A DNA stretch of 64,000 nucleotides, from contig CAZVVY010000002.1 of the NCBI GenBank assembly GCA_964630975.1, positions 44,633 through 108,632 on the forward strand, in the 5' to 3' direction. The DNA is from Candidatus Micrarchaeota archaeon (GTDB lineage: Archaea > Micrarchaeota > Micrarchaeia > Norongarragalinales > Norongarragalinaceae). Shown here piece by piece: positions 6,317 to 13,115 of this stretch (positions are counted from its first letter, which is position 1; each line of letters starts with the position of its first letter). The position numbers were made by a program, and so were the translations under genes. The notes beneath the pieces are model-generated. The model was not told the origin of the DNA and searched no databases. It saw only the letters and a program-made list of their open reading frames with translations.

Positions 6317-6322
6317 TATTTT

Positions 6323-7126
6323 GCTGATTACAGTAGAAATTTTGTCAAGGCCTTAAACCTCAAACCAGTACTAGCACTCAATACGACGATCTACTACAGT
6401 AGAAATTTTGTCAAGGCCTTAAACTTCCTTGCGTTGCCCACTCAAACCCCCATCTACTACAGTAGAAATTTTGTCAAGGCCTTAAACGCGACAACTTCAC
6501 GGTAGGATACTGGTTATCTACTACAGTAGAAATTTTATCAAGGCCTTAAACCGGGTTATACCGAATTCATTTCGGCTACCATCTACTACAGTAGAAATTT
6601 TATCAAGGCCTTAAACTGTATATTGAAGTAGTATCTCCCGCAACATCTACTACAGTAGAAATTTTGTCAAGGCCTTAAACTGGTCACGGGCGAACGAGAA
6701 GGAATCGGATCTACTACAGTAGAAATTTTGTCAAGGCCTTAAACACCAACAGTCAATGTTCGCCCACCACCGAATCTACTACAGTAGAAATTTTGTCAAG
6801 GCCTTAAACTGGTGGGCGCACGTGTTGGCACTACCAATCTACTACAGTAGAAATTTTGTCAAGGCCTTAAACAGTTCAACGATTAAGTTTTACGTGAACA
6901 TCTACTACAGTAGAAATTTTGTCAAGGCCTTAAACCTATTCGCGTATTCAATACTGCGTGCGTATCTACTACAGTAGAAATTTTGTCAAGGCCTTAAACA
7001 ATACAAGTCATACCTTTATGGGACGCATCTACTACAGTAGAAATTTTGTCAAGGCCTTAAACCTCGATGCTTACTATAGCGTCAATCGGGATCTACTACA
7101 GTAGAAATTTTGTCAAGGCCTTAAAC
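6323..7126 (-). CRISPR. CRISPR array of Cas12a type: 13 repeats of 36 nt and 12 spacers of 27-30 nt
   Basis: Plus-strand repeat is atctactacagtagaaattttgtcaaggccttaaac. Its reverse complement, GTTTAAGGCCTTGACAAAATTTCTACTGTAGTAGAT, ends in the Cas12a 5'-handle stem-loop (UCUAC-UGUA-GUAGA), so the array is transcribed on the minus strand like the cas genes. Repeat starts: 6323 (degenerate), 6389, 6452, 6516, 6581, 6645, 6709, 6774, 6837, 6900, 6964, 7027, 7091. The repeats at 6516 and 6581 carry one substitution (ttttatcaagg). Confidence 0.97.
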
Positions 7127-7349
7127 AGCGCGTTTTTTGGTCCGAATCTAATTCGGTCTTTATTTGCCTTTAATTGTTTTGCCTACCAGGTTTTGGAAAT
7201 CACTCCAAAACGATTTTTTCAGATTATTCCTATTTTTTGATATGCTATCCGAATTCTTAAAACCTTTGTTTTTGGTTGTCTAACGCGTTTTTAGAAAAGA
7301 AAACGCTTTTTTTTATCTCAAAAATGCGGGGCGAGGTTTGCAGTTTTTT
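7127..7349 (-). promoter_or_regulatory. CRISPR leader (AT-rich, between the cas2 stop and the first repeat)
   Basis: A 223-nt non-coding A/T-rich stretch lies immediately upstream (minus-strand sense) of the intact-repeat end of the array. The degenerate repeat is at the opposite end. No transcription start can be read from sequence alone. Confidence 0.55.
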
Positions 7350-12100: not shown

Positions 12101-12914
12101 CGTTGACTAATTCGTTTAAGCCCTTTATTTTATTGTTGCCTTCTTCGCTTTTGCCTCCTATGATTAAGTTGAATTTTTCTATTCCTTCTTGGTTAAGGCA
12201 GTTGTTGAAGTTTTTCAAGTTGAAAAAATCTTTTAATTTCTCTCCGTTCAACTCGCTTTCAAAGTTTTCTTCTATTTGGTTGGCGTCAAATTCCTTGTAT
12301 CTGGTTATTTCTCCGAAGCGTGAAACGTCATCTAGGAATTTCGGTAGGTTGTCGTTGACTATCCTGTAAATCATTGACGTCGAAATTTCATCGCTTGAAA
12401 AAACGTTTTTGCGGTTGTTAAAAAAACCGCTAAAGTAGGTAACCCATTTATCGAATTTTTCGATTTCTTTGAGTTCCTCTTTTTTCCCTTTTTTTTCGAG
12501 CCATTCCGGCAATATTTTTTTGATGAATTCTTTCTTGAACAAGTATTTGAATTCTTCTTTTTTATTTATTTCGTCGTGAATTAGTTTCCTTAATTGTTTT
12601 TGGAGTTTTGCGTATTCTTCCCTTAATTTTTTGTTGTAAGGGTCTTTTTTCAGTTTCGTGTAAGCGTTGTTGTTTTCTTCCAATTTTTTTAACGGTATCT
12701 TGGCACCTTCCAAGCATTCTTCTATGAATTGCTTGTAGTATCCGTCCATTATTTTTTTGACTTTGTTGAAATCTTTTTGGCGTTGTTCGTCTTCTGTAAT
12801 CAGGTTGCGATCTTGAATTTTCTGCAGTGTTTTGCCGACTGGCTTTAATTCGAAGCGTAGAGTTTTCGTTAGGGGGTATTGGTTTGTAAACGAATCCCAA
12901 GTCGAGACCTTCAT
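9150..12914 (-). CDS. cas12a: Cas12a (Cpf1), type V-A effector, 1254 aa
   Basis: N-terminus [22 protein letters not shown]. Pre-crRNA RNase region [15 protein letters not shown]...[22 protein letters not shown]. RuvC-I [13 protein letters not shown], RuvC-II [9 protein letters not shown], RuvC-III [14 protein letters not shown]. Nuc region LRNSRKD...FFDSRK. The operon order cas12a-cas4-cas1-cas2-array is canonical for type V-A. Confidence 0.97.
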   Translation of the reverse strand: [1254 protein letters not shown]

Positions 12915-13115
12915 ACTATCCCACCACCTTTTATGCCGCTGGAGCGGTCTTGTCGGCGACGGAACTGAAACGACGTTTCTACCTATTTTTAAATTAACCG
13001 CGCCGAACTAATTGCTCCCCTAGAAAAAAGTTAGACGGCCGCGCTTTTTAATCCTATTTTTCTTGGCTTGCGCTGAATGCCTACTTAAAACAAGAAAAGA
13101 AATAGACGAAAAAGT

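What the first reader, a model, noticed from the sequence alone, without database searches (positions are those of the whole stretch)
6317..13115. A complete type V-A CRISPR-Cas12a locus forms a sharply AT-rich island in a GC-richer archaeal chromosome
Seen in sequence:
- cas12a-cas4-cas1-cas2 and the array occupy the whole interval between the gap stop (6316) and the acyl-CoA synthetase stop (13116).
- Hand counts of 60-nt lines give about 35% G+C inside cas12a (line 9181), versus about 57% in gap (line 5701) and about 50% in the synthetase gene (line 13141).
- The composition changes within a few nucleotides of the gap stop codon.
- No integrase, transposase or flanking direct repeat is visible.

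Established knowledge: Cas12a is predominantly bacterial, with only a few archaeal examples reported (for example Methanomassiliicoccales-related lineages).

Inference: the locus was acquired horizontally and fairly recently from a low-GC donor.
Basis: partly seen in the sequence, partly recalled or inferred. Interest (0 to 1): 0.6.

Follow-up and report, generated by a model that had tools for sequence, protein, structure and literature searches.

The report
Recently inserted Cas12a CRISPR cassette in Micrarchaeota
A complete, intact-looking Cas12a CRISPR immune system was inserted as a 6.8-kb AT-rich cassette between two housekeeping genes of a tiny DPANN archaeon; a sister strain still shows the empty site, so this is a clean but ordinary case of horizontal transfer of a known defence system.

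Summary
Window 6317-13115 holds cas12a-cas4-cas1-cas2, a leader and a 13-repeat array. It has 37% G+C, against 54% for a 735-kb archaeal (Micrarchaeota-like DPANN) genome.

The horizontal-transfer reading is strongly supported.
- A sister lineage with 94-96% identical flanks has only a 31-bp spacer between the gap and acs stop codons.
- The congener has an unrelated 398 bp at that site.
- None of 400 other genomes of the phylum encodes Cas12a.
- Both junctions recur in independent assemblies.
- Cas12a and Cas1 both nest in a clade whose named members are all archaeal (Woese-, Pace- and Iainarchaeota labels, plus doubtful Methanosarcinales labels). Every member with DNA in hand has 22-37% G+C. 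The donor pool is therefore archaeal, not bacterial.

Three caveats apply.
- About 10 of the 17 G+C points come from amino-acid composition.
- Choice among pyrimidine-ending codons and the T3 fraction are host-like, unlike every homologue checked.
- All 12 spacers have host-like G+C.
The immediate source may therefore have been adapted to this host.

No integrase, target duplication or protospacer was found. This is a new member of a known kind, of moderate interest.

The parts
6317..13086 (-). Inserted cassette (~6.77 kb, 37.1% G+C). It is absent from the sister lineage L117 and from the congener G001.
   Evidence: Nucleotide homology to L117 stops at 6314 on the left and resumes at 13092 on the right. 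A fine alignment places the native spacer at ~13087-13115.
6323..7126 (-). CRISPR array: 13 repeats of 36 nt (GTTTAAGGCCTTGACAAAATTTCTACTGTAGTAGAT on the minus strand) and 12 spacers of 27-30 nt. Two older repeats (6516-6551 and 6581-6616) share a G-to-A variant.
   Evidence: The repeat's 3' end forms the Cas12a handle UCUAC-UGUA-GUAGA-U. The same handle is found in homologous arrays.
6323..6358 (-). Degenerate leader-distal repeat. The 3' half of the handle stem is lost. It starts 7 nt after the gap stop codon.
7127..7349 (-). A/T-rich leader (34% G+C) between cas2 and the first repeat.
   Evidence: The promoter is inferred, not shown.
7350..7622 (-). cas2 (90 aa).
   Evidence: PF09827 and TIGR01573 over cut-off. 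The N-terminal Asp is present.
7619..8596 (-). cas1, type V subtype (about 318-325 aa). The mechanical ORF extends to 8680, but the family match starts at residue 34.
   Evidence: TIGR04329 scores 382 bits against a cut-off of 300. JGI called a 318-aa product on the identical contig. The E/H/E-type motifs are present.
8586..9146 (-). cas4, type V subtype (186 aa), with four Cys and a D..ExK motif.
   Evidence: TIGR04328 scores 226 bits against a cut-off of 70.
9150..12914 (-). cas12a (1254 aa) with REC1, REC2, PI, RuvC and Nuc domains.
   Evidence: Pfam and TIGR04330 hits. Best PDB hits are ReChb 8qwd (1194 bits) and FnCas12a 5ng6 (1128 bits). D864, E954, D1209, R1172, H789 and K815 are invariant in a 42-sequence alignment; K798 is at least 90% conserved.
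12915..13086 (-). Cassette-borne upstream region of cas12a (46.5% G+C). It holds a TATA-like TTAATTTAAAAATA at 12984-12997 and an SD-like GGTGGTGGG at 12920-12928.
   Evidence: Sequence read. There is no homology to L117 or G001 here. The promoter assignment is inference only.
13087..13115 (.). Native gap-acs intergenic spacer, retained at the right edge.
   Evidence: It aligns to the 31-bp spacer AAGAAAAAAAAAGAAATAAGTGAAAACGGGT of L117.
5300..6316 (+). Left flank: type I glyceraldehyde-3-phosphate dehydrogenase (host gene, 55.9% G+C).
13116..14843 (-). Right flank: acetate-CoA ligase-type AMP-forming synthetase (host gene, 54.6% G+C).
   Evidence: NF003313 scores 838 bits against a cut-off of 729. 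It is 83% identical in G001.

Best explanation
This is a self-contained type V-A CRISPR-Cas cassette: promoter region, cas12a, cas4, cas1, cas2, leader and array.

Where and when it arrived:
- It was inserted directly after the stop codon of gap, into the ~31-bp spacer between the convergent gap and acs genes.
- The host is a ~54% G+C Micrarchaeota-like DPANN archaeon.
- The insertion post-dates the split from a sister lineage whose flanks differ by only 4-6%.
- The cassette comes from a low-GC archaeal Cas12a gene pool in which the credible organism labels are DPANN (Woese-, Pace- and Iainarchaeota-type carriers). It does not come from bacteria or from relatives within the phylum.

How it most likely works (inferred from family membership, not tested here):
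- The array is transcribed from the leader on the minus strand.
- Cas12a cuts the pre-crRNA itself just upstream of the UCUAC-UGUA-GUAGA handle. No tracrRNA is needed.
- It scans DNA for a T-rich 5' PAM and cleaves matching DNA with its single RuvC site.
- Cas4-Cas1-Cas2 add new spacers at the leader end.

The 12 spacers average 49% G+C, which is host-like. This suggests the array was filled in this host or in one of similar composition.

The integration mechanism is unknown. There is no integrase, no target-site duplication and no terminal repeat. Illegitimate recombination, or homologous replacement through the conserved flanks, is inferred.
For: Locus identity.

Catalytic residues: D864, E954, D1209, R1172, H789 and K815 are invariant and K798 is nearly so. 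Their spacing matches the FnCas12a residues D917/E1006/D1255, R1218 and H843/K852/K869. Those FnCas12a numbers come from established literature, recalled rather than looked up.

Empty site: L117 has acs, then 31 bp, then gap. Its flanks are 94.3% identical over 8102 bp and 95.9% over 6316 bp. G001 has PPase-acs-[398 bp]-gap, with homology ending at the two stop codons.

Absence elsewhere: 0 of 40 relatives and 0 of 400 genomes of the phylum carry Cas12a. Only 4 of 41 relatives have any Cas1.

Not an artefact:
- The left junction is present in ENA ERZ922772 k127_158430 (99.99% over window 1-7055) and in Logan contigs from ERR1878617 and ERR2407577.
- The right junction is present in Logan ERR2407578_21443 (99.97%).
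- The whole island is identical on a 150.5-kb JGI contig.

Phylogeny:
- Cas12a sits in a 29-row clade (SH-aLRT 96) and a 31-row clade (99) whose named members are all archaeal. The best identity is 58%.
- Cas1 sits in a 10-row clade (SH-aLRT 100) in which every labelled row is archaeal. The best identity is 72%.

Composition.

Spacers: mean G+C is 0.494 and there are no self-matches.
Against: - No donor is identified. The nearest Cas12a is only 58% identical and the query is an isolated branch in an unresolved part of the clade.
- Many clade members are unnamed metagenome proteins. The 'Methanosarcinales' labels on 23-30% G+C contigs of 5-7 kb are doubtful.
- C/(C+T) in two-fold codons is 0.75 and T3 is 0.13. 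Both are host-typical and unlike all 11 homologous cas12a genes checked (NNC codon fractions 0.05-0.55). They are also unlike the genome's other AT-rich islands. A fresh arrival from a 22-33% G+C archaeon does not predict this.
- No protospacer was found, so neither targets nor PAM are known.
- Activity, expression and crRNA processing were not tested.
Confidence: 0.85

Rival explanations
1. The cassette has long been resident in the Micrarchaeota mobile gene pool, for example on an unbinned plasmid or virus, or at another locus. It only recently moved into the gap-acs site. On this view the immediate donor was not a distant low-GC archaeon, and the low G+C mostly reflects Cas protein composition.
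For: - With host codon choice, the Cas12a protein would still be only 43.7% G+C, so 10 of the 17 points are due to amino acids.
- C/(C+T) in two-fold Y codons is 0.753 for cas12a and 0.733 for cas1, against a host value of 0.770 +/- 0.133.
- T3 is 0.128-0.141, against a host mean of 0.138.
- Homologous cas12a genes show NNC codon fractions of 0.05-0.55 and T3 of 0.23-0.43. The other AT-rich islands of this genome show C/(C+T) of 0.12-0.55.
- All 12 spacers, including the oldest, have host-like G+C.
Against: - 0 of 400 genomes of the phylum carry any Cas12a.
- No closer homologue than 58% exists among 5.8 billion proteins.
- A3 (0.41) lies at the 99th percentile of host genes and G3 (0.15) at the 2nd percentile.
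- A relative (L108) has the same overall cas12a G+C (36.9%, GC3 0.405) in equilibrium with its own ~38% G+C contig. A donor of that composition therefore needs no amelioration in G+C.
Confidence: 0.2
2. The cassette was inherited vertically at this site and then precisely deleted in the sister lineage, in the congener and in all other relatives.
For: CRISPR-Cas loci are often lost. Earlier notes of this scan describe deleted Cas12a loci in other DPANN genomes (unverified leads).
Against: - It needs at least two independent losses at this site (L117 and G001), plus absence in 400 genomes.
- The L117 site is a clean 31-bp spacer with no repeat or cas remnant.
- The Cas12a and Cas1 trees place the query among other phyla.
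- Composition is atypical for the genome.
Confidence: 0.04
3. The island is an assembly chimera or binning contamination: a foreign contig piece joined into a Micrarchaeota contig.
For: There is a sharp composition change at both borders. The genome is a metagenome-assembled draft of 18 contigs.
Against: - The island lies inside a 117-kb contig with host genes on both sides.
- Both junctions were assembled independently by different assemblers from at least three runs, and on a 150.5-kb JGI contig.
- Estimated contamination is 0.05%.
Confidence: 0.01

Closest known systems
Canonical type V-A CRISPR-Cas loci (Francisella novicida FnCas12a/Cpf1, PDB 5ng6; cas12a-cas4-cas1-cas2-array)
   Same: - Same gene order and same five Cas12a domains.
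- Full-length match to TIGR04330.
- The subtype-specific cas4 and cas1 models (PREFRAN) score over cut-off.
- 36-nt repeat with the AAUUUCUACU-N-GUAGAU handle.
- All RuvC, Nuc and RNase residues are conserved.
   Different: - The host is a DPANN archaeon rather than a bacterium.
- The handle loop is UGUA instead of UGUU.
- Identity to characterised enzymes is modest; the closest protein overall is 58% identical.
- PAM and activity are untested.
Cas12a loci annotated in DPANN archaeal MAGs (Ca. Iainarchaeum sp. JAQVTI01, Ca. Woesearchaeota JAVZCZ01 and CAYQJI01, Ca. Pacearchaeota JBAZCR01) and unnamed metagenome relatives (L108, L109)
   Same: - Same Cas12a clade (SH-aLRT 96-99) and, where cas1 was present on the contig, the same Cas1 clade (100).
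- Similar repeats. For example, L108 has GTCTAAGGCAATTGTCAAATTTCTACTATTGTAGAT, which I counted by hand as 27 of 36 identical.
- Same operon order.
   Different: - Those loci sit in 22-44% G+C genomes, where the cas genes are close to the host composition. Here the host has 54% G+C and belongs to a phylum with no other carrier among 400 genomes.
- The closest relative's locus (L109) also carries a cas12a3-like second effector, which is absent here.
Archaeal Cas12a of Methanomassiliicoccales (Ca. Methanomethylophilus alvus, Ca.
   Same: These are archaeal type V-A systems generally regarded as acquired by transfer. This is established knowledge and was not re-tested here.
   Different: They did not appear among the 80 best genome loci or in the query's clade. 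The query's relatives are DPANN-labelled instead.
Integrase-less genomic islands and defence islands at intergenic hotspots
   Same: - Presence/absence polymorphism between near relatives.
- Atypical composition.
- Defence cargo.
- Three different contents at the same gap-acs site in three lineages: 31 bp, 398 bp with a 117-aa ORF, and the 6.8-kb cassette.
   Different: There is no tRNA target, no integrase, no direct repeats and no other cargo. The unit is exactly one CRISPR-Cas operon plus its array.

Membership tests
Type V-A CRISPR-Cas (Cas12a/Cpf1) | A single large effector that matches the Cas12a equivalog model over its full length. | tested here: met
   TIGR04330 scores 1320.7 bits (cut-off 300) over residues 7-1252 and model positions 2-1287 of 1288. 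The Pfam domains REC1, REC2, PI, RuvC_1 and NUC are all over cut-off.
Type V-A CRISPR-Cas (Cas12a/Cpf1) | An intact RuvC catalytic triad and Nuc arginine, with no HNH domain. | tested here: met
   D864, E954, D1209 and R1172 are invariant in 42 aligned homologues. No HNH hit was found. The mapping to FnCas12a residue numbers is from recalled literature.
Type V-A CRISPR-Cas (Cas12a/Cpf1) | Self-processing of pre-crRNA (RNase residues H/K/K in the WED domain) and no tracrRNA. | tested here: inconclusive
   H789 and K815 are invariant and K798 is at least 90% conserved, with FnCas12a-like spacing of +9 and +26. No anti-repeat appears among the 25 longest inverted repeats.
Type V-A CRISPR-Cas (Cas12a/Cpf1) | A repeat of about 36 nt ending in the 5-bp stem-loop handle UCUAC-loop-GUAGAU. 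| tested here: met
   The repeat is GTTTAAGGCCTTGACAAAATTTCTACTGTAGTAGAT. The predicted fold is a 5-bp stem, a 4-nt loop and a 3' U. The same handle occurs in the arrays of L108, L109, L031 and L039. The folding energy alone is not better than shuffles.
Type V-A CRISPR-Cas (Cas12a/Cpf1) | An adaptation module cas4-cas1-cas2 of the V-A (PREFRAN) subtype. | tested here: met
   TIGR04328 scores 225.6 bits (cut-off 70). TIGR04329 scores 381.7 bits (cut-off 300). cas2 matches TIGR01573 with 36.4 bits (cut-off 24.5).
Type V-A CRISPR-Cas (Cas12a/Cpf1) | A T-rich 5' PAM and staggered dsDNA cleavage. | not testable with these tools
   No protospacer was found in the own genome, in the held loci, in the viral contigs (4 spacers) or in the metagenome contigs (1 spacer).
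Horizontally acquired genomic island | Absent at the orthologous site in close relatives. | tested here: met
   L117 (94-96% nucleotide identity) has a 31-bp spacer. G001 has an unrelated 398 bp.
Horizontally acquired genomic island | Gene phylogeny incongruent with the host phylogeny. | tested here: met
   Cas12a and Cas1 nest among sequences from other archaeal phyla. 0 of 400 genomes of the host phylum have a homologue.
Horizontally acquired genomic island | Atypical nucleotide, codon and k-mer composition. | tested here: met
   G+C is 0.37 against 0.54. GC3 is 0.44-0.48 against 0.659 +/- 0.088. The 4-mer distance is the largest in the genome. However, pyrimidine-ending codon choice is host-like.
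Horizontally acquired genomic island | Mobility hallmarks: integrase or transposase, tRNA target, flanking direct repeats. | tested here: not met
   None was found. A suspected repeat-like right end is at chance level.

The most novel reading that the evidence does not exclude
Cas12a cassettes may circulate among DPANN archaeal phyla as minimal, integrase-less units made of a promoter, four cas genes and an array. They would drop into short spacers between convergent genes.

In this copy, codon usage departs from the host's mainly by a G3-to-A3 shift on the coding strand. T3, C-over-T choice and oligo-T runs are host-like or depleted: there are 4 runs of T5 or longer, against 11-29 in homologues.

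That pattern could record either passage through a Micrarchaeota-adapted mobile element or selection against archaeal oligo-T terminators in a long AT-rich operon.
Probability: 0.2. Interest if true: 0.55.

Novelty: new member of a known kind. Interest (0 to 1): 0.38.

Why it matters
- It gives an unusually clean, dated example of a class 2 CRISPR-Cas system entering a DPANN archaeon. The filled site, the empty site and an alternative content are all in hand.
- It is the only Cas12a carrier among 401 sampled genomes of its phylum.
- The 2025 CRISPR-Cas classification (PMC12669027) describes archaeal class 2 systems as rare apart from II-D in DPANN. A supported archaeal, DPANN-labelled Cas12a clade adds to that picture.
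- In practical terms it is one more compact (1254 aa) Cas12a orthologue with intact catalytic residues and a slightly different handle loop.
- It does not reveal a new mechanism.

Tried and rejected
- Terminal inverted repeats, target-site duplication or a repeat-like sequence at the right border: none was found. The best repeat-like match scores 8 against a shuffled mean of 8.5.
- Exact search for the repeat in metagenome and viral contigs: 0 hits.
- Protospacer searches all failed: own genome, held loci, viral contigs for S01, S02, S03 and S05, and metagenome contigs for S01.
- Names for unnamed clade members through cluster look-up: none were returned.
- Literature on Cas12a in DPANN, Micrarchaeota or Woesearchaeota: only incidental mentions.
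- A second CRISPR array in the genome: the only other candidate (C1:77230-77564) is a tandem duplication at a scaffold gap.
- Amelioration dating from GC1/2/3: abandoned. A relative (L108) shows that a ~38% G+C donor would give the observed G+C without any amelioration.
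Full report
**Observation**

ORF listing and family scans give four genes on the minus strand.
- cas12a lies at 9150-12914 (1254 aa). It scores 1320 bits on TIGR04330 against a cut-off of 300. The Pfam domains REC1, REC2, PI, RuvC and Nuc are all present.
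- cas4 lies at 8586-9146 and matches TIGR04328.
- cas1 lies at 7619 to about 8596 and matches TIGR04329.
- cas2 lies at 7350-7622.

A 223-nt A/T-rich leader follows. After it comes an array of 13 repeats of 36 nt with 12 spacers of 27-30 nt, at 6323-7126. On the transcribed strand the repeat reads GTTTAAGGCCTTGACAAAATTTCTACTGTAGTAGAT. It ends in the Cas12a handle: a 5-bp stem, a UGUA loop and a 3' U. The last repeat is degenerate and starts 7 nt after the gap stop codon.

The island has 37.0% G+C. The genome's 2-kb windows average 54.0% with sd 3.4. In 100-nt bins G+C falls from 55% to 36% at the gap stop codon.

**Host**

The assembly has 735 kb in 18 contigs and is 89.6% complete. Its SSU rRNA scores 1440 bits on the archaeal model and 1118 on the bacterial one. 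The flanking H+-pyrophosphatase has its nearest named homologues in Ca. Norongarragalinales and Ca. Micrarchaeota, at 63% identity. An earlier agent of this scan also called the genome Micrarchaeota.

**Not an artefact**

- The left junction (gap to terminal repeat) recurs in an independent ENA assembly, which is 99.99% identical over window 1-7055.
- The left junction also recurs in Logan contigs from two runs.
- The right junction (cas12a to acs) recurs in a Logan contig from a third run, at 99.97% identity.
- The whole island is identical on a 150.5-kb JGI contig.

**The decisive test: synteny**

The pyrophosphatase search turned up a 97%-identical protein. Its contig, L117, carries the same gene order as the window. 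Nucleotide identity is 94.3% over 8.1 kb on the right and 95.9% over 6.3 kb on the left. In L117 the acs and gap stop codons are separated by only 31 bp. The window keeps about 29 nt of that spacer at 13087-13115. The insert is therefore 6317 to about 13086, and it entered directly after the gap stop codon.

The only same-genus species genome, G001, has flank proteins 83-84% identical. It shows PPase-acs-[398 bp with a 117-aa ORF that matches no Pfam family]-gap, and homology to the window ends at the two stop codons.

The wider survey agrees.
- Cas12a is absent from 40 of 40 relatives in the family and order.
- Cas12a is absent from 400 of 400 genomes sampled across the phylum, which span 155 genera.
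- The type I gap gene, by contrast, is present in 36 of 41 relatives.

One gain on the G000 branch is the parsimonious reading.

**Source**

Among 5.8 billion proteins the closest Cas12a is only 58% identical. A FastTree of 104 sequences and an IQ-TREE (C20 mixture) of 49 sequences both give the same placement. The query falls in a clade of 29 rows (SH-aLRT 96) to 31 rows (99). The named members of that clade are all archaeal: Ca. Iainarchaeum, Ca. Woesearchaeota, Ca. Pacearchaeota, and two doubtful 'Methanosarcinales' labels on 23-30% G+C contigs. The nearest relative's flanks encode PolB and RadA. The sister group is bacterial (Termititenax).

Cas1 gives the same answer. It sits in a 10-row clade with support 100 in which every labelled row is archaeal, and the best identity is 72%. 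The cas12a genes of clade members with DNA in hand have 22-37% G+C. The donor pool is therefore low-GC and archaeal. The query's branch is isolated, and no donor can be named.

**Composition, looked at more closely**

- GC3 of the four cas genes is 0.44-0.48, against 0.659 +/- 0.088 for 537 host ORFs. That puts them in the lowest 3.5-5%.
- The composition-normalised 4-mer correlation with the genome is 0.842, against 0.961 +/- 0.024. The raw 4-mer distance is the largest in the genome.
- If the Cas12a protein were encoded with host codon choice, it would still have only 43.7% G+C. About 10 of the 17 missing points therefore come from its Lys/Glu/Ile/Asn/Phe-rich composition, and about 6.6 from synonymous choice.
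- The synonymous deviation is one-sided:

| Measure | cas12a | cas1 | Host genes |
|---|---|---|---|
| C/(C+T) in two-fold pyrimidine-ending codons | 0.753 | 0.733 | 0.770 +/- 0.133 |
| T3 | 0.128 | 0.141 | mean 0.138 |
| A3 | 0.41 (99th percentile) | 0.42 | mean 0.204 |
| G3 | 0.15 (2nd percentile) | 0.11 | mean 0.296 |

- None of the 11 homologous cas12a genes checked shows the C preference. Their NNC codon fractions are 0.05-0.55 and their T3 is 0.23-0.43.
- The genome's other AT-rich spots do not show it either, with C/(C+T) of 0.12-0.55. These spots are an XcyI-type restriction enzyme with its neighbouring ORF (C3:89-1982), sugar-modification genes (C15) and a HEPN protein (C5).
- The coding strand also has only 4 runs of T5 or longer, against 11-29 in homologues.

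I cannot explain this half-host-like signature. It keeps alive a rival in which the cassette has spent time in a Micrarchaeota-adapted mobile element. The absence of Cas12a from 400 genomes of the phylum argues against that rival. A relative, L108, has cas12a at 36.9% G+C in equilibrium with its ~38% G+C contig. A donor of that composition would account for the G+C without any amelioration, so I did not attempt amelioration dating.

**Function (inferred)**

- All catalytic positions are conserved: RuvC D864/E954/D1209, Nuc R1172 and the RNase residues H789/K798/K815. Six are invariant in 42 homologues and K798 is at least 90% conserved.
- Cas4 keeps its four cysteines and its D..ExK motif. Cas1 and Cas2 keep their acidic and histidine motifs.
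- The best solved relatives are the reconstructed ReChb (8qwd) and FnCas12a (5ng6).
- The 12 spacers average 49.4% G+C, with a range of 33-63%, and show no trend along the array. This is close to the host and far from the 37% of the cassette. None matches the genome itself. The array thus looks filled in this host or in a similar one.
- An independent assembly breaks in the second repeat from the leader. This is a weak hint that the leader end may vary.
- No protospacer was found, so the PAM and the targets remain unknown.

**Mechanism of insertion**

I found no integrase, transposase, tRNA, target-site duplication or terminal repeat. The site lies between two convergent stop codons and disrupts no promoter. 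It carries three different contents in three lineages, so it behaves as a small hotspot. Illegitimate recombination, or homologous exchange through the conserved flanks, is the inferred route.

**Context and novelty**

Only 4 of 41 relatives have any Cas1. The congener carries a different cas4-cas2-cas1 module in its own AT-rich contig end. CRISPR-Cas is therefore sporadic, accessory cargo in this group.

The 2025 classification paper notes class 2 systems as rare in archaea, apart from II-D in DPANN. I found no paper on a DPANN Cas12a clade. However, such genes are already annotated in GenBank. Earlier notes of this scan also report Cas12a islands and deletions in other DPANN genomes (unverified leads).

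**Verdict**

This is a new member of a known kind, of moderate interest.

Noticed in passing
L109:13827-17342 and L110:6615-10130: In the locus of the closest Cas12a relative (P0002, 58% identity), a 1171-aa gene lies between cas12a and cas4. It matches the solved 'Cas12a3' nucleases (PDB 21we at E 2e-56, 9hlx at E 2e-46). Its only Pfam hit is a sub-threshold TNB zinc-finger match. The window's cassette has no such second effector.
   Followed up: partly
L069 and L052 (archaeal-labelled MAG contigs): Their Cas12a proteins branch inside a Bacteroidota/Flavobacterium-type clade. Their Cas1 proteins fall in the same archaeal Cas1 clade as the query, and L069 is the best Cas1 match at 72%. Either the effector and adaptation modules have been shuffled, or the contigs are mis-binned.
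   Followed up: partly
window 7350-12914 (cas genes), compared with the whole genome: Third codon positions of the cas genes are A 0.41, C 0.32, G 0.15 and T 0.13. T3 and C-over-T choice are host-typical. A3 lies at the 99th percentile of host genes and G3 at the 2nd. The cas12a coding strand has 4 runs of T5 or longer, against 11-29 in homologues. The cause is unexplained.
   Followed up: partly
L024:3158-3511 (G001 contig C50): At the same gap-acs site the congener has a 117-aa ORF (49% G+C). It has no Pfam match and no homologue in the window's genome.
   Followed up: partly
L118:5000-10262 (G001 contig C20, contig end): The congener carries a different cas4-cas2-cas1 adaptation module (generic cas1 model TIGR00287, 243 bits; the V-A subtype model is below cut-off). 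An AbiEi-like gene lies nearby. The region has 38-47% G+C in a 55-59% contig. The effector is unknown because the contig ends there.
   Followed up: partly
genome contigs C3:89-1982, C15 (whole, 6.7 kb), C5:56686-57357, C17, C4:1-3600, C8:242-943: These are the other AT-rich stretches, mostly at contig ends. They include an XcyI/BsoBI-like restriction endonuclease with an adjacent unassigned ORF, a methyltransferase plus an NAD-epimerase (sugar genes), and a HEPN protein. They have the usual T3-rich foreign codon signature, unlike the CRISPR cassette.
   Followed up: partly
window 5300-6316: The bacterial-type (class I) GAPDH is present in 36 of 41 genomes of the family and order at 39-58% identity (84% in the partial congener copy), and it has host-like G+C. 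It is an old, vertically inherited feature of this group, not part of the island.
   Followed up: partly
genome contig C1:77230-77564: There are four copies of an 18-mer inside duplicated units of about 66-72 nt, on either side of a run of N (a scaffold gap). This is a tandem duplication or an assembly artefact, not a CRISPR array.
   Followed up: partly
L111 (ENA ERZ922772 k127_158430), end of contig = window 7055: This independent assembly stops inside the second repeat from the leader, just before the newest spacer. That would fit population variation at the leader end.
   Followed up: no
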